Notes under the pieces: generated by a model
Database searches by the model: none
What the model was told of the DNA's origin: nothing
What the model saw: only the letters and a program-made list of their open reading frames with translations
Shown: positions 37,125-62,891 of the stretch, in pieces
Position numbering within the stretch: position 1 is the first letter of the stretch
Layout: each line of letters starts with the position of its first letter
Translations under genes and position numbers: made by a program
Assembly: GCA_008690995.1 (NCBI GenBank)
Contig: VRMN01000010.1
Span: 62,001-126,000, forward strand
From: Porphyridium purpureum
Lineage: Eukaryota
DNA: 64,000 nt
Direction of reading: 5' to 3'

Positions 37125-37732
37125 CTCCCGCTAACTGCGCGTCCTCCTCCGCCCCAACGCACCCTCACACCAAAGCCTTATTGCCCAGCGCCCACATCAG
37201 ACTTTGTCCCAATCTGCCTGCGGGACATCCGCCAATGCACCGCGAACTGTACACTACACCAGTAGCCGTTACGCCTTCTTTTTTTCTTCTTTCAAAATTT
37301 TGAAAAACGGCGCGCCGCAGCTCATTCAGCGCCACTGTACACCCACGTAACGCTCGCTGATCGTCAGTAGTGTACAGTTCGCATGTCACCACTTGGTTTT
37401 GCGAACGTGCGCACGCGTCAGTGGGGGGCTGGGTGGGACGTTGTCGATGTGACCTTGTTGCGTGGTCTGTACGTACTGCTCGAGATACGCCGCTGCGGCT
37501 CGCATATCGGGTCGTCTGCCTCTTCGCGGCGTCAGAGGCTTCTGTAAATTCGGTCGCAATACACGTGAGCCGACGAAGAAAAAGCGAGACAGAGGCGCAG
37601 GTGTGTGGACGGCAGAGGTTACATACAGCACCTGCGAGCAGCCTGCCCAAGACAACATTTATACTGCTGTGTTGGCATTGCGTGGCTGGTAAAAAAAAGT
37701 AGCGTTGAGAGCCTTCTCGGCAGACGCTAGTC

Positions 37733-51351: not shown

Positions 51352-51560
51352 ATTTCCTCCGCCTCTCCACACCCGCTCGCTCCCTCCTCCCGCCAACTTT
51401 CCAACCCCCAAACGTCTTCTCCGGCTTCTTCTCCATCACTTGACCCTCGCCTCCGCCACTTTCAGCGCTTCCCGCGTTCTTCATACACAAACACACGCGT
51501 TCTGCTATCAACACGCGATGCGTCCTGCGGCGGCCCAAACGCGGCGGCGGCGGCGGAAAA

Positions 51561-51747
51561 GTACAGTGGGAGTATAGCGCAAGTACAGTGAGAGTACAGC
51601 GCAAGTACAGCGCAAGTATAGCGCAAGTACAGCGCAAGTACAGCGCAAGTACAGCGCAAGTACAGCGCAAGTACAGCGCAAGTACAGCGCAAGTACAGTG
51701 AGAGTACAGCGCAAGTACAGCGCAAGTACAGCGCAAGTACAGCGCAA
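51561..51747 (+). repeat. Tandem array of 17 x 11-bp units (GTACAGCGCAA and variants) upstream of RPS28
   Basis: 187 bp = 17 units; variants GTACAGTGAGA, GTATAGCGCAA, GTACAGTGGGA. Confidence 0.95.
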
Positions 51748-51778
51748 GGAAAGGTGCGGCACGGCGCGATGGTGATGA

Positions 51779-52056
51779 AGTAGAGGAATACGTCCTCCTC
51801 GATGGCCAACGGAGTGGTGCGGCGATCGAGCTCACGCGTACGCGCTGTTCGTGTGCGCGTGAAGGGTGTGGCAGTGCCGCAGTAACCAACAAACACAGCT
51901 TTACTGGTAGTCGACGAGCACGCTCCAAGAAAACACTCCTTACCCGAAAGAGCGGGCTAGTGAGACCGTCCACGCTCTCCGGCCGCTTACAATCGCGGCG
52001 CGCTCCTCTACCCATACTGTACACAGCCACGAGGTGTACACCCAGTGTACACTACA
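51779..52056 (-). repeat. 3' LTR (278 bp)
   Basis: Direct repeat of 57360-57637; minus strand reads TGTAG...CTACT; preceded by a weak purine-rich tract GGCGAAGGAGTG. Confidence 0.95.
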
Positions 52057-52142
52057 CACTCCTTCGCCGCGATGGAAGCTACCACCCGCTCCACACAAGC
52101 CACCCGACGGCGAAGCGAGTCACACGAGACGATGCGTACGCC

Positions 52143-55100
52143 CTACGGTTCTTGCGCTGTCGGCGCACGCCCGAGGATCACATCACGGAGGTGTGCGAAC
52201 CTCTTTCCCTGCAGCGGTTTGGTCAGCAGGTCCGCGATCATGACCTCGGTGCTACAATGTACCATCGTCGCGACTCGCCTCTTCAGCAGATCGTGCGTGA
52301 AGAAGTGTTTGATCGCGATGTGGCGCGACCTACGCGAGGTCGCCCGACCGTGTGCAAGGAGAGACATGGTCGCCTCGTTGTCCTGGTGTAGGCGTACGCC
52401 AGCTGTGCGGATGCCCTGCGCCTCGAGGAAGTTCCGCGTCCATATCGCTTGCCCGATCACATCGCTCACGCCCACCAGTTCCGCTTCGGTGGAGCTCTTT
52501 GTGTTGAGCTTCTGCTTGACACTGGTGGCGTACGCCGCGCCGCGGCCCAGGCTCACAACGCCACCCGTGTGGCTCCTCATGTTCGCATGTGTCGCGAATG
52601 AGGCGTCGACATAGCACTCCACGTGCGGCTCCGCATGGCTCGCGCAATCGGGCTCGCGCTCGTCTGCAACCCAACCCGTGCCCAGCTCCAGCCTCATGTC
52701 TCGCGTCTTGTTGAGGTACCTCAGCAGGCGGGTCAGCTTCGCGCGGTCATTCTCGCCCGGGGCCTGTACTCGCGTAGCCAGAAACGCTACCGCAGTGAGC
52801 AGGTCCGGGCGTATGCGCTTCGCGAGGTATAGTACCTTTGCGGTGGCGCTGTGGAACGCCTCCTTGTCGTGCGACGTCAGTAACTGCGACTCGTCATCCA
52901 CGAACAACCCGGCTTGAGCGGGCGTGTCTGCGGTACCGCGTACGTCATTCTCTCGCAGTAAAGAGTCTACAAACCCGCCCATCCCGATGCGCACCACCCC
53001 CGGGGAGGTATAGTCAAACTCCATCCCCAGGTAGCTGTGTGTGCGCCCTCGGTGCTCCTGCAGCGACGGAAACCTTTCGCGTACGCGCGCCACCACTTCA
53101 TCAATCGCTTGCTCGCTTTCTGCGATCAGCTTCACGTCGTCCACGTGCACAAGCGCTGTGACGGAAGGCTCGCCCGTACGGGAGACTTTCCGCAAGACAC
53201 AAGCGTCGTAAGCATTATGTTCGAATCCGAGCTCGCTCAACATTTCGCAGAGGTGGTCATACCAACGCTTGGACGCATCGATGCATCCATACAACGGGCG
53301 CTTCAACCTGCAGACCAGAACACCGTTCTTGACGAACTGCTTCATGCGCTTGTCTACGGCGGCGAGCAGCCCGGTCAGGTTTCTGTTGATCCTCACGTAC
53401 GTGTGTGGGTCGCTGTCGGGGATGCTTGCGTTGAGAAATGCCCCGGGGAAATCAATCGTGGCGACTGCGGCACCGCTTCTCGCTGCCTCGGCTGCCAGTA
53501 AGAAAATAGCCTCGGTCGCCACCGTGGGGGACGAACAGTCGGAGTACTCCGATCGATCTTGCTCGTTCCCGCCGGCCACCATTCGTGCTTTGATTTTCTC
53601 CAAGGCGCCTGAAGCATCGTGCTTCTCCTTCACGAACATGAACGACGGAATGATCCCGTCTCGTTGTTTCTTCGTGAGCGTGTGCACGTGGACCGGCTCC
53701 AGCACGTCCAGACCGTGCTTGGACAGCTGCAACAGCTCAGCGACAATCGCCTTGAGTCCTTCCATACCGTATTGGCGTATCGCCTGGCGTACGCCGATCC
53801 TCAGCGTTTTGTGTCTGCGCTTTCCCGGCATCGCAGAAGATAGCAAGTCCTCCGCCTCTCGTTTCAGGGCGACCACGACCTCCGGCGCGCGCCGTACACG
53901 CAGGCGTTCCTTCTCGCGGCGCGATAGCCGCTCATTCTTTTCGCGCTCGACATCCGGGAATGTCCCTTCTGCTTTCCGCTTCCGTGTCCGACGCGGAGAG
54001 CTGACGGCGCGGGCATGCTCGGCTTCGCTCGTGCGCGGTACCGCATTTCGGACGGCGTCCGCGTACGATGGCTCCGTGGTCATCTGACTCAGCAGACGCG
54101 CCTCACGTTCCTCCAGCGCTCGCAGCTTCTCTTCAATTGCTTCCACCCGCGCTTTGGCCTGTTCCATTGTCACCTCGGCGACCGAGGGGGTCAAGGCCGC
54201 TTCGCCGTCTGAAGCGTCCGGACTGGTGATTGTGGCGTCGCCGTGCGGCCGTGCGGCAGTAGCGGGTGGATCAGTCGACGCCTCTTCCTCGGGCACATGG
54301 GTTTCCACAGATTCTGCCACGATAAGCGGCTCCGGCAGTACTGCGTCCGTGCTTGGCAGACCCTCGCCGGTCGCTTCCGCAGTCGCTGGCGTCATTGCTC
54401 GCCCCGCCTCGAAGAGTGAATCCGCTGCACGTCGCATCTCTTCCATGCGCAGCTGCGTGGGAGTGGACGGTGACTCATCCTTACTCAGCACGTCGGCGCC
54501 CGCCGGTGCGGGGTGATCGGTGTCGGCGTGTGTCGGAGTCTGCGCCTGTTCACGCAGTACCGCGTCTTCTGGCTGGTCCAGATACGTGTGCCCCTCCGCC
54601 GCTGGCTCGTCGACCGGCCCGCCGTTTTTCAGCGCCGCCTCGACCTCCGCCGTCTCTTTGTCTTCCTCCTGCGAGAGTTCCACCTCCGTGCGGCCGAGGT
54701 CCTGATCGCCATCGTCGATGCCTGCCACGGTTGGGAGCGCATTTACGTACGTGATCAGGTGGTCCGGTACCGGGAGCTCTGTCCACACCTGTCTGACGAT
54801 GGGCTTCAGTGTGTTCAGATTCATGAGCACCCAGCTTCCCGCAGCATTCTCGGCGGAATGCAGGGTGAGGCAGCCCAACGTTCTGGGCCTCATCGTGCTG
54901 TCCACGGACGCTGTATGTGCCTGGACATACGCCCCGAATGGAGCACGTAGGTCCGTCTTCGCGTCTACTTTACGACCAAAGTAGATGGCGTGCGCCGGTT
55001 CGCCCGCGTCGGAGGCCTCGCTCGTCACCATGTTCAGTCTCTGTCGAGAGAACTCCACGGCTCCCGGCAGCATGCATAATGGCATGGTGTACGGCAGGTC

Positions 55101-56201
55101 GTACGACAATGTGCGGACCCTTTCCTTTAGAAGGCGAATCGCTCGCTCAGCGGCGGGCACCACCTCGTCTGCCGCGGTTAGCTCGGGCAGGATGCCGGCC
55201 TCCATCAACTCGATCCAGAGCGACAGGACTGCGCTTTCACGGTCGAACCGAATCTCAGGTATCTGCACTCCATGCCCGCGGGCCTCGTTCAACTGCCGCT
55301 GCACCGCCGCGCGCACCGAAGGCACGTCCTTCCGCTTCAGCTCGGTGGCCAGGATGTATTGACTCGGTTTCAAGACCGACACGAGGAAAGGCACCTTCGA
55401 GATGAACATCAGGTCGGAGTGCATCACCTGGCGCGCTTTGGGACCAGTGGCGACCGCTTCAGACAGACTCGGTGTCGCGTGTCCCGTTGTCTTTCCCTTC
55501 ACACACGGCAGTGGAGTACCCCAGATTGCATTCGCACGCTCGAGGTCCGCCGACGTGACGTCACAGTTGCTTATGTCCCCGCGCTGAAGCATGCGCTTCA
55601 GCACACCAAAGGATGGGAATCCCAGCCTCGCCTGCAGAGAGCGAGCGGCGCGTGCGCGTTCAACCTCGCGTACCGTGCATCGGGCAAGGTTGCTGGCGAC
55701 CGTCGTGATCGTGCTTGAGGTCCAAGCCTTGGCAGACGATGGACCGGCCCGGCAGCTGTTCCGGTTGTCCTTATTCGTGGCTGCCTTCTTGTATGCTGGG
55801 CCCGTCGTGTGCACGAGATCTGCACGCCGTATTATCGCAGTGTACATTCCGTGTGCATCGGGCGCGAAGACCAGCCAGCGCTTGGAGTTCGGCACGCGTA
55901 CGCGGAAGCGGTTCTCATCCGCGTCGAAGCGTACATCATGCCCTTCCGCGACCAGCTTGGTCATAGACAGCACGTTGCCTGCAAGGTTCTCGTTGACGTA
56001 CGCCATGCCGAAGGCCGTCTCACCGCCGTGCCCGATGGCCAGCTCGCTCGCCCGCGCGTCAATTCCGGACAGCAGCAAGTACTCGTCAATTTTCTTTACC
56101 CGATGGACTAACCCCTTATCCTTCATGACGTGAACACCCGAGCAGGTGTCGAGACCCAAAGGTATCTCGTCACCGAAGCCCGTGGGCCACGTCGCACACC
56201 G
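52143..56201 (-). CDS. pol: Pol polyprotein (protease, integrase, reverse transcriptase, RNase H)
   Basis: LDTCSGVH protease; HSDLMF/FDRE/AERAIR integrase DDE; KARMVAGG, DFPGAFLN, LYG, VHVDD RT; YVDAS, SSTEAE, QDN, ADLLTKPL RNase H; frame open back to the gag stop. Confidence 0.95.
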   Translation of the reverse strand, partial: RCATWPTGFGDEIPLGLDTCSGVHVMKDKGLVHRVKKIDEYLLLSGIDARASELAIGHGGETAFGMAYVNENLAGNVLSMTKLVAEGHDVRFDADENRFRVRVPNSKRWLVFAPDAHGMYTAIIRRADLVHTTGPAYKKAATNKDNRNSCRAGPSSAKAWTSSTITTVASNLARCTVREVERARAARSLQARLGFPSFGVLKRMLQRGDISNCDVTSADLERANAIWGTPLPCVKGKTTGHATPSLSEAVATGPKARQVMHSDLMFISKVPFLVSVLKPSQYILATELKRKDVPSVRAAVQRQLNEARGHGVQIPEIRFDRESAVLSLWIELMEAGILPELTAADEVVPAAERAIRLLKERVRTLSYDLPYTMPLCMLPGAVEFSRQRLNMVTSEASDAGEPAHAIYFGRKVDAKTDLRAPFGAYVQAHTASVDSTMRPRTLGCLTLHSAENAAGSWVLMNLNTLKPIVRQVWTELPVPDHLITYVNALPTVAGIDDGDQDLGRTEVELSQEEDKETAEVEAALKNGGPVDEPAAEGHTYLDQPEDAVLREQAQTPTHADTDHPAPAGADVLSKDESPSTPTQLRMEEMRRAADSLFEAGRAMTPATAEATGEGLPSTDAVLPEPLIVAESVETHVPEEEASTDPPATAARPHGDATITSPDASDGEAALTPSVAEVTMEQAKARVEAIEEKLRALEEREARLLSQMTTEPSYADAVRNAVPRTSEAEHARAVSSPRRTRKRKAEGTFPDVEREKNERLSRREKERLRVRRAPEVVVALKREAEDLLSSAMPGKRRHKTLRIGVRQAIRQYGMEGLKAIVAELLQLSKHGLDVLEPVHVHTLTKKQRDGIIPSFMFVKEKHDASGALEKIKARMVAGGNEQDRSEYSDCSSPTVATEAIFLLAAEAARSGAAVATIDFPGAFLNASIPDSDPHTYVRINRNLTGLLAAVDKRMKQFVKNGVLVCRLKRPLYGCIDASKRWYDHLCEMLSELGFEHNAYDACVLRKVSRTGEPSVTALVHVDDVKLIAESEQAIDEVVARVRERFPSLQEHRGRTHSYLGMEFDYTSPGVVRIGMGGFVDSLLRENDVRGTADTPAQAGLFVDDESQLLTSHDKEAFHSATAKVLYLAKRIRPDLLTAVAFLATRVQAPGENDRAKLTRLLRYLNKTRDMRLELGTGWVADEREPDCASHAEPHVECYVDASFATHANMRSHTGGVVSLGRGAAYATSVKQKLNTKSSTEAELVGVSDVIGQAIWTRNFLEAQGIRTAGVRLHQDNEATMSLLAHGRATSRRSRHIAIKHFFTHDLLKRRVATMVHCSTEVMIADLLTKPLQGKRFAHLRDVILGRAPTAQEP

Positions 56202-57311
56202 TCATGCATCGGCGTTCCTTTTCAACGCGTCAAGTGCGGCCCGCAGCTGTTGCTCCGTCGCCCCGGCCAGCACCGGCCCGCGTCCGCGCGTGTCGCGCCT
56301 CGCCATGCGCGCCTGCCTCTCCTTCGCCGCGCGCATCCTATCGGCCATTCCGCTGTCCAGCGGTCGCGCGTGGCAGTCGCGAAGGAGATGATCATCCGCG
56401 CCGCAGTTGTAGCATTCGCGTACGCGTGGTGCTGCTGCGAGCTCCACATCATCTGTGTCCTCGTCTTCTGGGTGTTCGGTGTCCGTCCGCCAAGTGCGAC
56501 CATGTACCGGTTGTTTCGCGTACGCGAACTGCGCCATGAAAGACATTGCCTGGTCGACCGTGTCGAACCGTCGGTGCTCGTTGTTGCACTTGCGTACGGC
56601 TTCGTCCCAGCGCGTACCTTCAAGCTTTAGGATAAAGTCAGCCGCGCAGCGCTCGGAAGACGGCACTGGTTCGCCCACGGCTTCAAGGGCCATCACCGCT
56701 GCCTTGAAGCGCGTCTTGAACGAAACAAGTGATTCGTCTGCTCCAACTCTCAGTTGATCGTACGACATGCGAGCATACTGCTGGTTACGCAGCGGGTCGT
56801 CGTAGCCACGGGTCAGGTGCGCCTCGATCACGCGCTCGAGAAGCTGCAGCGGATCGTCCGATTCTCGTACGAGTTGACTCCAGCCGGGCTTTACGGCCAG
56901 CGCTTCCTTAGATGCGCGGCTCAGTTGGCCCATGATGAGTCCAAACACGCGCACGCGAGTTTCCTTGTCCTTGCGTATCGCGTCCGAGCGCGCCGCGAGC
57001 GCCAGCTTGAGCTCTTCCTTGGCGACGGTGGCGCTGTACCAATCCTCCCGTCCCGCCTCCCCGAGCCCTGGGGTTGCTTGCGGGATCGTCGGCAAGGTGG
57101 GGTACACGCGTCCTTGGCGCTCTATCGCAAACGCTGTGCCGATAGCGCCGTATTCCTTCTTGCAGTAGTTGCCGAGCTCCTCGACCCAAACTACCACCGC
57201 GGCCGGCACCACACGCGTGCTGTCGTAAGTGAGCAGCGGAAGTGTCTCTACAAGACCGGCTTCGCGTGGGTGCGGCGAACGGCCTGCGCCGCTTTGTCCG
57301 ACACGTGACAT
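56202..57311 (-). CDS. gag: Gag protein
   Basis: IMGQLS, DESLVSFKTRF, zinc knuckle CYNCGADDHLLRDC. Confidence 0.92.
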   Translation of the reverse strand: MSRVGQSGAGRSPHPREAGLVETLPLLTYDSTRVVPAAVVVWVEELGNYCKKEYGAIGTAFAIERQGRVYPTLPTIPQATPGLGEAGREDWYSATVAKEELKLALAARSDAIRKDKETRVRVFGLIMGQLSRASKEALAVKPGWSQLVRESDDPLQLLERVIEAHLTRGYDDPLRNQQYARMSYDQLRVGADESLVSFKTRFKAAVMALEAVGEPVPSSERCAADFILKLEGTRWDEAVRKCNNEHRRFDTVDQAMSFMAQFAYAKQPVHGRTWRTDTEHPEDEDTDDVELAAAPRVRECYNCGADDHLLRDCHARPLDSGMADRMRAAKERQARMARRDTRGRGPVLAGATEQQLRAALDALKRNADA

Positions 57312-57344
57312 TCTCGTTTGTCACCGGTGTCGCAGACTCTCAGA

Positions 57345-57359
57345 TTTTCTTGGAGCGTG
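57345..57359 (-). promoter_or_regulatory. Putative self-complementary primer-binding site CACGCTCCAAGAAAA
   Basis: Abuts the 5' LTR; perfect 15-bp inverted repeat of LTR positions 57500-57514; no TGG tRNA-type PBS present. Confidence 0.8.
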
Positions 57360-57637
57360 AGTAGAGGAATACGTCCTCCTCGATGGCCAACGGAGTGGTG
57401 CGGCGATCGAGCTCACGCGTACGCGCTGTTCGTGTGCGCGTGAAGGGTGTGGCAGTGCCGCAGTAACCAACAAACACAGCTTTACTGGTAGTCGACGAGC
57501 ACGCTCCAAGAAAACACTCCTTACCCGAAAGAGCGGGCTAGTGAGACCGTCCACGCTCTCCGGCCGCTTACAATCGCGGCGCGCTCCTCTACCCATACTG
57601 TACACAGCCACGAGGTGTACACCCAGTGTACACTACA
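57360..57637 (-). repeat. 5' LTR (278 bp)
   Basis: Direct repeat of 51779-52056, upstream of gag on the minus strand. Confidence 0.95.
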
Positions 57638-57654
57638 GATGACGCTGTGCGCTT

Positions 57655-57884
57655 GCGCGCGTTCTGCGCGCACCTGCGGCGCTGCGCTGCGTGTCGCAGG
57701 GCGACGCGGCTGGCGGCGACAGAACGCACGCGCGCGTCGATGCAGGCTCGTGCAGGCACTCTCTGAGTCTGCGCTGTCTCCCGTGAGTGCTGCGCTAACC
57801 CCACGCGCAGTGCGCCGTTGGGGAGGAAAACCGCCAGTCGCGATTTTCGTGGCCAGTTCACGATATTTCGGCCATCAATTCGAT
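57655..57884 (+). repeat. Dispersed ~230-bp repeat, copy 1
   Basis: Colinear similarity to 62670-62891 including CGCGCGCGTCGATGCAG, GCACCTGCG and GCCATCARTTCGA. Confidence 0.75.
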
Positions 57885-58119
57885 GCGATATCCGGCGTTT
57901 CGGTTGGAATGGTTAAAGAAAACACGCGCGCGCGCGCAAGCGTTGCGGATGTGATCGACTGCCGGCAATCGTGAGTCGCACCTGCTTTCGCCGCACGAGG
58001 GCGCGCGAGAGTTTGCGGGAGGGGCGAAAGTGGAGGCTGTGTGTAGACGGGCGGGTGTGCGGTAGACGCAGAGGGCACGGTGCGGTCGCGACGACGCGCG
58101 CGCGAAAGGGTAAAGGGGC

Positions 58120-60231
58120 ATGGCGACCGCGGTGACTTTGGTGGGGCACTCAGCTTCGGTGTACGCTTTGGACTTTTCGCCCGATGGCCGGTTCATCATG
58201 TCCGGCAGCAAAGACAAGACGATCAAGTTGTGGGACGCACATACCGGCGCGTGCTTGCGCACATTGGCGGAGCACATAGATTGGGTACTTGCAGTTCACT
58301 TTTCGCCCAATGACCGGTTCATTGCGTCCGGCAGCTCCGACAAAACGGTCAAAGTGTGGGACGCACACACCGGCACGTGCGTGCGCACATTGACGGGGCA
58401 CTCAGATGTGGTTTTCGCGGTGCGTTTTTCGCCCGATGGCCGATTCATCGTGTCCGGAAGCAAGGACGGAAGGGTCAAAGTGTGGGACGCACACACCGGC
58501 ACGTGTGTGCTCACATTGACGGGGCACTTTAATACGGTATATGCGGTGGATTTTTCGCCCGATAACCGGCTCATCGTGTCCGGCAGCAAGGACAGAACAG
58601 TCAAGGTGTGGGACGCACACACCGGCGCGTGCGTGCGAACCATCACGGGGCACTCAAATTCGGTGCGCGCGGCGCACTTTTCGCCCGATGGCCAGTTCAT
58701 CGCTTCCGGCAGCTGCGACAAAACGGTCAAAGTGTGGGACGCACACACTGGCGCGTGCGTGCGCACATGGATGGAGCACTCAGATGTGGCGAGCGCGGTT
58801 CACTTTTCGCCCGATGGCCGGCTCATTGCTTCCAGCAGCGACGACGAGACGGTTAGGGTATGGGACGCAAACACCGGCGCGTGCGTTCGCACATTGACAG
58901 GGCACTCAGGCGCGGTGGGCGCTGTGCAGTTTTCGGTCGACGGCCGCTTTATCGCGTCCGGTAACGACAACAAGAAGGTGAAGTTGTGGGACACAACCGA
59001 CCTGAAGTGTGGCCCCGAAGGAACGCCAGGTGACGTTGACGAGGAAAAATATTGCAAGGACTATTGGGAGGTCGCCGACTCGGATGGGAGCCAAGCGTTG
59101 GACGCTCAGGAGGCGCTGGCGTTCTTCTCGAAGGCGCGGCTGCCGATGTCGGTGCTGCATCGGATGTGGGATGAGATTGCGATAGCTCGCGGCAAGCGTG
59201 CGCTTACCTATGACGACTTTGTGCTCGCACTGCGGTGGGTTGCGCTGGCGCAGAACGGCGAGGAGGCGAGCCTCGCACGTGTGCAGCAAGGTTCGCTGTC
59301 ACTGCGCGCCAAGATCGACGTACCCGGGTGGAACCCGTTCGACAGGGTCGCGCGCACGCTGTCGGAGACTGCGCGACACGAGGAGTACTGGAAGATGGCC
59401 GACGCAGACGGAAGTGGGGAGGTGGACGTGCATGAAGCGGTAGCGTTTTTGTCCAAGTCTGGACTGCGGAACCGCGTGCTGAATGAGATCTGGGGCCTTG
59501 CAACCAGTCAAGGGGTTTTTTCGTCCCTGGACACGGAGCGGTTCAAGACTGCGTTGCGTCTGGTGGCAATGGCGCAGAAGGGAATGAGGCTGGATGTGGA
59601 GGAGGCGGCAGGTGGCGAGATGGAACTAATTGCGGACTTCAAAATCAATGTCGCGAAGCCGGCGCCCGAGCCGGCGCCAGAACCGGTGCCAGAGCCGGCG
59701 CCAGAACCGGTGTCAGAGCCGGTGTCAGAGCCGGTGTCAGATCCGTTCAGGCCGTCCCGAAACGACAGCCAGGGTGCTGACTTGGAGAGGATGTTTGCGG
59801 AAACTGCGCTGGATGATCTGACGTGTGAGCAGCTGGCTCGAGTGCTGCAAGAAGTCTTGCAGGTTGATGGGGCCTCGGTGAGGAATGTGAGGGAGCGCCG
59901 GGTGAGCGGTGAGGCACTGCACGACATGAGAGAATTCCAACAGTTTGCAAAGCTGTCGTTCCCGGACAAGAAGAAAGTTGAAAAGTGGGTGGCGGGGCGA
60001 AAATCGTACGAAGGATTCGAGGAATACCTGTTTCGTGTGCTTGGTGATGATTCGGAGCGCGCCGAGCGTGCGTGCGCGTTGCTTTTAGAATCTCACGCTG
60101 TGTCGAACTTGGACGAGTGGTTGTGGTTTCGGAAGCAGCCTAGCAAGCGAACAAGTATGAGGACGATTGTGCGGCGCTTCCCGGAGCTCGGGACGTGGCC
60201 GGGCGGGCCGGACGCGGAAGATTGGACGTAG
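58120..60231 (+). CDS. WD40 (7 near-identical 42-aa repeats) + 2 EH domains + PEP linker + SAM-like domain protein
   Basis: GH..V.AV.FSPDGRFI.SGS.DKTVKVWDAHTG.C repeats; two EH motifs (ADSDGS..EALAFFSKARLP..LHRMW..FVLALRWVALAQ and ADADGSG..FLSKSGL..LNEIW..FKTALRLVAMAQ). Confidence 0.9.
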   Translation: MATAVTLVGHSASVYALDFSPDGRFIMSGSKDKTIKLWDAHTGACLRTLAEHIDWVLAVHFSPNDRFIASGSSDKTVKVWDAHTGTCVRTLTGHSDVVFAVRFSPDGRFIVSGSKDGRVKVWDAHTGTCVLTLTGHFNTVYAVDFSPDNRLIVSGSKDRTVKVWDAHTGACVRTITGHSNSVRAAHFSPDGQFIASGSCDKTVKVWDAHTGACVRTWMEHSDVASAVHFSPDGRLIASSSDDETVRVWDANTGACVRTLTGHSGAVGAVQFSVDGRFIASGNDNKKVKLWDTTDLKCGPEGTPGDVDEEKYCKDYWEVADSDGSQALDAQEALAFFSKARLPMSVLHRMWDEIAIARGKRALTYDDFVLALRWVALAQNGEEASLARVQQGSLSLRAKIDVPGWNPFDRVARTLSETARHEEYWKMADADGSGEVDVHEAVAFLSKSGLRNRVLNEIWGLATSQGVFSSLDTERFKTALRLVAMAQKGMRLDVEEAAGGEMELIADFKINVAKPAPEPAPEPVPEPAPEPVSEPVSEPVSDPFRPSRNDSQGADLERMFAETALDDLTCEQLARVLQEVLQVDGASVRNVRERRVSGEALHDMREFQQFAKLSFPDKKKVEKWVAGRKSYEGFEEYLFRVLGDDSERAERACALLLESHAVSNLDEWLWFRKQPSKRTSMRTIVRRFPELGTWPGGPDAEDWT

Positions 60232-62669: not shown

Positions 62670-62891
62670 CGCGCACGCTCTGCGTGCACCTGCGACGCCG
62701 CGCGCTAGAAGGTCACGCGACTGGCGACCACAGAACATGCGCGCGCGTCGATGCAGACGCGCGCAGACGCATTCTGAGCCTGCGCGCGTCTCCCATGCGA
62801 GCTACGCAAACCGCAGGCGCAATGTGCCGTGGATAGAAACACGCCAATCGCCGTTTCCCGCCACGTTGCGGCAGTTTAGCCATCAGTTCGA
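62670..62891 (+). repeat. Dispersed ~230-bp repeat, copy 2
   Basis: Diverged direct copy of 57655-57884. Confidence 0.72.

What the first reader, a model, noticed from the sequence alone, without database searches (positions are those of the whole stretch)
57345..57514. Copia-order retrotransposon with a self-complementary PBS (tRNA-independent, Tf1-like self-priming)
Seen: on the element's sense (minus) strand the 15 nt immediately after the 5' LTR are CACGCTCCAAGAAAA (57359-57345). They do not start with TGG and do not resemble the half-tRNAiMet PBS. The LTR itself contains the exact complement TTTTCTTGGAGCGTG (57514-57500), and the 3' end of that would-be primer abuts the last LTR base with no gap. 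A small U5 hairpin (GAGGA-5nt-TCCTC, 57364-57378) lies next to it. Established: S. pombe Tf1 and related Ty3/gypsy chromoviruses prime minus-strand synthesis by annealing the transcript's first bases to a PBS beside the LTR. Inference: this INT-RT-RH (copia) element self-primes. I know of no well-characterised self-priming copia lineage, so this may be a convergent mechanism.
Basis: partly seen in the sequence, partly recalled or inferred. Interest (0 to 1): 0.92.

Follow-up and report, generated by a model that had tools for sequence, protein, structure and literature searches.

The report
Self-priming copia retrotransposon in red alga
A young jumping gene of the red alga Porphyridium has, where such elements normally bind a host tRNA, 15 letters that match its own terminal repeat exactly, and dozens of distant relatives keep such a match with different letters, so this branch of copia elements likely starts copying itself with the front end of its own RNA.

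Summary
An intact 5,859-bp copia-order element (identical 278-nt LTRs, 5-bp target duplication; Pol 100% identical to a protein named from Porphyridium purpureum) has a 15-nt PBS that is the exact complement of LTR nt 124-138 and starts flush with the LTR end. The feature is lineage-wide. Of 79 related environmental loci, 45 have an inverted repeat of 12 bp or more, and 36 of these start at an LTR-end motif (background 3.7%). Own-locus matches of 12 bp or more occur in 26 of 51 testable loci against 28 of 2,550 cross-locus pairs. Letters co-vary, and an initiator-like CA marks the primer's 5' edge in 38 of 41 relatives, mostly 15 nt from its 3' end. Self-priming is therefore likely but not shown: RNA reads cover the element yet do not fix the start, and host tRNAs could not be scanned. 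New here are a red-algal member and no conserved Tf1-type flanking 'pretzel' helices. The U5 hairpin is not above chance.

The parts
57638..57642 (-). Target-site duplication (TCATC), upstream copy
57360..57637 (-). 5' LTR, 278 nt, ends TG...CT (non-canonical 3' end)
   Evidence: reads from other insertions leave the LTR at the same last base
57514..57522 (-). 9-nt copy of the PPT/3' LTR junction (AAGGAGTGT) directly before the primer site; role unknown
   Evidence: seen in 1 of 42 loci (this one)
57500..57514 (-). Predicted self-primer (LTR nt 124-138); transcription start predicted at 57514 or 57515
57364..57378 (-). Small U5 hairpin (5 bp); not above chance, not conserved
57345..57359 (-). 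Primer-binding site, exact complement of the self-primer site, flush with the LTR end
56202..57311 (-). gag ORF with CCHC zinc knuckle (below Pfam cut-off, E 0.0018); ends in TGA followed by CGG, in frame with pol
52143..56201 (-). pol frame, 1352 aa: protease-like DTCSG motif, integrase (profile match to a solved integrase, E 1.9e-12), RVT_2 reverse transcriptase, RNase H (YVDASF...SHTG type)
52057..52068 (-). Polypurine tract ending AAGGAGTG; a like motif precedes the LTR in 32 of 41 relatives
51779..52056 (-). 3' LTR, identical to the 5' LTR (primer-site copy at 51933-51919)
51774..51778 (-). Target-site duplication (TCATC), downstream copy

Best explanation
This is an intact, recently inserted copia-order LTR retrotransposon whose primer-binding site is the exact complement of a 15-nt site in its own LTR, and it likely primes minus-strand DNA synthesis with the first ~15 nt of its own transcript instead of a tRNA. 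Shown: the anatomy, the complementarity, its conservation with changed letters across the lineage, and transcription of the family. Inferred: transcription starts at 57514 or 57515; the RNA's 5' end folds onto the PBS, looping out about 140 nt of R-U5; a nuclease (by analogy with Tf1, the element's RNase H) cuts after nt 15 to free a 3'-OH flush with the LTR end; RT copies R-U5 and the product jumps to the 3' R. Copying of the primer during plus-strand synthesis would keep PBS and primer matched, which would explain the co-variation.
For: Exact 15-bp match at offset 0, about 5e-5 by chance at one position. Relatives: longest inverted repeat >= 12 bp in 45 of 79 loci, 36 of the 45 starting at an ACA LTR-end junction against 3.7% background. 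Own versus cross-locus matches >= 12 bp: 26 of 51 versus 28 of 2,550. Second, later-fetched set: 5 of 29 loci gave >= 12 bp, all 5 with the same geometry. In L035, L058 and L075 the LTR end defined by the direct-repeat boundary alone is the base before the PBS. Five-sequence alignment made without structure: 95.9% of cells paired, 10 of 15 pairs changed on both sides, 0 of 500 shuffles as high, slid controls 46-58%. Initiator-like CA at the 5' edge of the primer in 38 of 41 relatives (background 16%), 15 nt from the primer's 3' end in 22 of 38, equal to this element's duplex length. No TGG in the first 6 PBS nt in any of 42; mean PBS identity 40%. A sister family's PBS differs at positions 3 and 13, both still able to pair as G-U.
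Against: No start site seen: RNA reads cover the element but show no pile-up of ends at 57514 or 57499, and both LTRs and read-through from other copies mix. This element lacks the lineage's CA at the primer edge (TG instead). Tf1's flanking helices were not detected: own duplex energies equal cross-locus ones in 33 loci, U5 hairpin p = 0.11. A change of the primer's last base is read in 7 of 35 and 2 of 15 RNA reads (not in two DNA contig sets; unphased). Not all relatives fit: L010 has a partly broken match, L005, L066 and L069 are unclear, and L007, L019, L042, L076 give only 9 bp; the duplex is not favoured in the ensemble in 3 of 33 loci. The 41-locus set was selected on pairing plus a CA end (4 added by eye). 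Host tRNAs and other Porphyridium families' LTRs could not be examined.
Confidence: 0.78

Rival explanations
1. The pairing is real and selected but the transcript starts further upstream; the primer is cut out of the RNA at both ends or carries a 5' tail. In this family the PPT-like AAGGAGTG right before the primer site would then be an RNase H cut signal that makes the primer's 5' end.
For: A 9-nt copy of the PPT/LTR junction abuts the primer site and occurs nowhere else in the window but at the PPT and in the two LTRs; the lineage's CA initiator is missing here; no start seen at 57514.
Against: The copy is in 1 of 42 loci only; a T-G step at 57516-57515 fits a pyrimidine-purine start (recalled rule); duplex length equals the lineage's modal initiator-to-3'-end length; RNase H cuts at a PPT need an RNA/DNA hybrid (own knowledge).
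Confidence: 0.1
2. The long-range helix is a conserved RNA structure for packaging, dimerisation or translation control, and priming uses a host RNA (tRNA fragment or other small RNA) at or near this site.
For: Long-range 5' pairings are common in retroelements (own knowledge); host tRNAs could not be scanned (no genome; no tRNA gene in the window).
Against: One arm starts at the LTR end to within one base across the lineage, which a generic helix does not need; PBS letters differ widely and never start with TGG, so each family would need its own host primer and its own matching LTR site.
Confidence: 0.08
3. The match is a by-product without function: chance, or a past template-switch that copied the PBS into the LTR.
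For: Other perfect 15-16 bp inverted repeats occur in the window.
Against: Fixed position, lineage-wide recurrence and changes on both sides.
Confidence: 0.03

Closest known systems
Tf1/Tf2 of Schizosaccharomyces pombe and the Tf1/sushi group (Ty3/gypsy chromoviruses)
   Same: PBS beside the 5' LTR complementary to an LTR site predicted to be the RNA's 5' end; no tRNA PBS. In Tf1 the first 11 bases pair and RNase H cuts between 11 and 12 (PMC7175516, passage). Some fission-yeast members also have an in-frame TGA-C between gag and pol (bioRxiv 10.1101/2022.12.06.519325, passages).
   Different: Copia domain order and RVT_2-type RT; 15-bp duplex rather than 11; the three-duplex 'pretzel' that Tf1 requires was not detected; nothing here is shown by experiment.
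Plant Ty1/copia TAR lineage (Houba, Osr-1)
   Same: Copia elements predicted to self-prime by the same test, >= 10 bp of LTR complement starting 0-5 bp after the LTR (PMC6317226, passages); this element meets it.
   Different: No hit named from a plant among the best 120 (most are unnamed); weak RVT_2 score (65 bits) and no Pfam integrase match; the clade is set off by a long branch from more canonical, unnamed copia RTs. No TAR sequence was in any tree.
Diatom copia elements (CoDi lineages; PMC2806351)
   Same: Proteins named from Nitzschia inconspicua and Fragilaria crotonensis fall inside the same set of self-complementary loci, share the VDAS...SHTG RNase H start, and the Atlas's three best clusters are commonest in Bacillariophyta.
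   Different: The Porphyridium proteins form their own 6-member branch (SH-aLRT 99), 34-37% identical to those diatom proteins over RT-RH. The paper's text gives no primer site; which CoDi group matches was not determined.
Fungal GalEa copia elements with a conserved hairpin site instead of a PBS (PMC5445492)
   Same: Copia elements without a tRNA PBS (passages).
   Different: There the pairing is between two short internal sequences 12-41 nt apart and the authors found no LTR complement; here the partner lies in the LTR.

Membership tests
Ty1/copia LTR retrotransposon | LTRs, target-site duplication, PPT | tested here: met
Ty1/copia LTR retrotransposon | Pol order PR-INT-RT-RH with RVT_2-type RT | tested here: met
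   RVT_2 at aa 853-1088; family profile matches a solved integrase upstream of it; motifs located
Ty1/copia LTR retrotransposon | Canonical TG...CA ends | tested here: not met
   TG...CT; a known non-canonical copia end (PMC9804982, passages)
tRNA-primed elements | PBS starting TGG within 0-5 nt of the LTR | tested here: not met
   (0 of 42 loci)
half-tRNA-primed elements | PBS complementary to an internal stretch of a host tRNA | not testable with these tools
   no host genome held; no tRNA gene in the window
Tf1-type self-priming | PBS complementary to an LTR site, flush with the LTR end | tested here: met
Tf1-type self-priming | The LTR site is the 5' end of the transcript | tested here: inconclusive
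   RNA reads do not fix a start; initiator-like CA at that edge in 38 of 41 relatives, not in this element
Tf1-type self-priming | Two flanking duplexes ('pretzel') | tested here: not met
   no excess over cross-locus controls in 33 loci; U5 hairpin p = 0.11; short helices could escape these tests
Tf1-type self-priming | RNase H cleavage of the RNA duplex releases the primer | not testable with these tools
   needs biochemistry
Tf1/sushi group (membership) | Ty3/gypsy order RT-RH-INT | tested here: not met
   integrase lies before RT
Plant TAR lineage (membership) | Clusters with TAR in RT/RH/INT trees | tested here: inconclusive
   no TAR sequence at hand; indirect evidence against
Diatom CoDiI / CoDiII (membership) | Clusters with named CoDi reference elements | tested here: inconclusive
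   groups with diatom-named proteins but no CoDi-labelled reference was available

The most novel reading that the evidence does not exclude
A large copia branch spanning red algae, diatoms and unnamed aquatic eukaryotes evolved self-priming independently of Tf1/sushi and of plant TAR, in a minimal form: an initiator-defined, cap-proximal primer of about 15 nt and one duplex, without Tf1's flanking helices. Its RNase H (VDAS...SHTG type) would have its own way of cutting double-stranded RNA, and in the Porphyridium family a PPT copy may have replaced the initiator as the mark for the primer's 5' end.
Probability: 0.45. Interest if true: 0.75.

Novelty: new variant of a known kind. Interest (0 to 1): 0.58.

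Why it matters
Self-priming has been shown only in gypsy-type Tf1 and merely predicted for one plant copia lineage. A further, distant copia branch would mean that tRNA-free priming arose (or was kept) several times, which bears on the open question of whether hairpin priming or tRNA priming came first (PMC3601003, passages). It also explains why these algal elements show no tRNA PBS, so PBS-based finders may miss or misclassify them. This copy is intact, has identical LTRs and belongs to a transcribed family, so it offers a direct test of whether a copia RT/RNase H cuts an RNA duplex.

Tried and rejected
No host genome is held, so host tRNAs and other copies could not be scanned. Viral contigs gave no relatives. 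Rfam found nothing near a gathering score in 57100-57800, so no hammerhead ribozyme. RNA reads from three raw runs (20-25% of each read) did not reveal a start or a cleavage end; sense depth in one run falls from about 68 to 24 between 57620 and 57490, compatible with, but not fixing, a 3' end inside the LTR. The sister family's LTR primer site could not be read: 27 of 67 variant rows were not shown. Pretzel and U5-hairpin tests were negative. The test missed 9 loci that were positive (>= 12 bp), mostly because the PBS lay over 260 nt from the called ATG; I report both counts. Of 14 loci read by eye, L012, L057, L067, L088, L090, L091 and L097 lack the junction or the primer site in the contig. 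The search of prokaryote genomes found only mis-binned eukaryotic contigs, none close to this family. The careful IQ-TREE search did not finish; one search is the quick tree, midpoint-rooted. Literature: 10 full-text searches listed no paper describing self-priming in algal or diatom copia elements; most subscription papers, the primary Tf1 papers and the supplement of PMC2806351, which could list CoDi primer sites, were not available.

Full report
Element. On the minus strand, 57637-51779 is a 5,859-bp LTR retrotransposon with two identical 278-nt LTRs and a TCATC target duplication. A gag frame with a weak zinc-knuckle match ends in TGA at 56204-56202, followed in frame by a 1352-aa pol. Pfam finds RVT_2 at aa 853-1088; a profile of 43 family members matches a solved integrase upstream of it, so the order is copia-type. 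The RT-RH part is 100% identical to a protein named 'Copia protein [Porphyridium purpureum]', whose cluster has 6 members. Reads show several other flanks at the same LTR ends, so the family is multi-copy, and three RNA runs cover it.

Observation. The 15 nt after the 5' LTR are the exact complement of LTR nt 124-138, with no gap and no TGG. A perfect 15-mer complement within the preceding 278 nt occurs at 8 of 127,404 strand positions, 2 of them this pair. The duplex has predicted probability 0.98 in the RNA from 57515. The U5 hairpin exists but is ordinary (p = 0.11; 1 of 41 loci at p <= 0.05).

Lineage test. A metagenome scan kept 79 related loci, 30-48% identical in the best segment. The longest inverted repeat in their non-coding ends was >= 12 bp in 45 of 79; in 36 of these the second arm begins at an ACA motif typical of an LTR end (background 3.7%). 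In three loci where both LTR copies have different neighbours, the repeat boundary alone puts the LTR end at the base before that arm; a fourth overruns by 5 nt. With a fixed rule (260 nt before the called gag ATG), 51 of 79 loci were testable; 26 had an own match >= 12 bp, against 28 of 2,550 cross-locus pairs. A second set fetched later (29 mis-binned contigs, many too short) gave 5 matches >= 12 bp, all with the same geometry. Five related loci aligned without structure keep 95.9% of cells paired with 10 of 15 pairs changed on both sides; 0 of 500 shuffles reach this and slid registers give 46-58% (related sequences can beat shuffles, so the slid control matters more). Among 41 distinct relatives (selected on pairing and a CA end, 4 added by eye, 2 duplicates dropped) plus this element, PBS identity averages 40% and none has TGG in its first 6 nt.

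Where the RNA starts. In 38 of those 41 relatives a CA dinucleotide sits at the primer's 5' edge (background 16%), and its A lies 15 nt from the primer's 3' end in 22 of 38. This was not a selection criterion and resembles an initiator (recalled), so it supports a primer made of the transcript's first bases. This element has the modal 15-bp duplex but T-G in place of C-A, which points to 57514 or 57515. RNA reads did not test this: no pile-up of ends was listed, and 3' LTR and read-through reads mix in.

Evidence against or unexplained. Tf1 needs two flanking duplexes; own-locus energies for such helices were no better than cross-locus ones in 33 loci. In 29 of 41 relatives the pairing runs one base into the LTR's last A; here it does not. 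A variant of the primer's last base appears in 7 of 35 and 2 of 15 RNA reads but not in two DNA contig sets, and cannot be phased. A sister family's PBS has two transitions that would still pair as G-U; its LTR site was not shown. L010 has a partly broken match; L005, L066, L069 are unclear; L007, L019, L042, L076 give 9 bp only. A 9-nt copy of the PPT junction abuts the primer site in this element alone (1 of 42).

Placement. The element groups with five other Porphyridium-named proteins (SH-aLRT 99) among loci with the self-complementary PBS on both sides of the midpoint; proteins named from Nitzschia and Fragilaria lie inside that set (quick tree). With 22 further copia RTs from mis-binned contigs, the set plus 8 of them stands apart from more canonical copia types by a long branch. 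No TAR, CoDi or GalEa reference could be included, so independent origin is an inference.

Known work. Tf1 primes with its first 11 bases after an RNase H cut (PMC7175516, passage; bioRxiv 10.1101/2022.12.06.519325, passages). Self-priming is predicted for plant copia TAR elements (PMC6317226, passages and section 10). Fungal GalEa lack a PBS in another way (PMC5445492, passages). The CoDi paper (PMC2806351, passages and sections 6-7) and a later diatom genome paper (PMC8147415, term search) say nothing on priming; PMC3587641 and PMC5776459 (passages) add nothing on it. TG...CT ends are a known copia variant (PMC9804982, passages). Ten searches listed no description for algal copia; subscription papers, the primary Tf1 papers and the CoDi supplement were not available. 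This scan's notes report the same signature in diatom elements (31 findings, 8 shown); they are unchecked notes and my counts do not rest on them.

Verdict.

Noticed in passing
window 56204-56199 (-): gag ends in TGA followed by CGG, in frame with pol: a likely programmed read-through. The same stop is in a 5.6-kb contig of another run; most relatives have one ORF, L042 also has TGA-C.
   Followed up: partly
window 57361-57360 and 51780-51779 (-): The LTR ends in CT instead of CA, shared by several insertions.
   Followed up: partly
window 57522-57514 (-): 9-nt copy of the PPT/LTR junction directly before the primer site; only in this element among 42.
   Followed up: partly
window 57230-57342, 57361-57627, 52057 (reads and contigs): Sister families or non-autonomous derivatives share the LTR and leader at about 85-90% identity, leave the element at 57230 and rejoin before the 3' LTR; some of their reads lie on the opposite strand.
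   Followed up: partly
window 57655-57883 and 62671-62891: The DNA upstream of the 5' LTR is itself a repeat (73% alike copy at 62671-62891; high depth), with an internal inverted likeness; possibly another mobile element used as target.
   Followed up: no
window 51559-51742: Tandem array of an 11-nt unit about 30 nt beyond the 3' target duplication.
   Followed up: no
window 37242-37257 and 37367-37382: Perfect 16-bp inverted repeat 110 nt apart whose arm shares GTAGTGTACA with the LTR start; unexplained.
   Followed up: partly
window 58114-60231 (+): WD40-repeat gene with 126-nt repeats next to the element; a database protein (P0002) fuses this family's RT-RH to WD40 repeats under a TFIID subunit name, likely an annotation artefact.
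   Followed up: no
L080-L138 (handles G001-G004): Several prokaryote genome bins hold eukaryotic copia contigs; G002 has 67 RVT_2 matches.
   Followed up: no
L042, L048, L073, L074: Long perfect inverted repeats (15-50 bp) in or near the LTR region, apart from the primer pairing.
   Followed up: no
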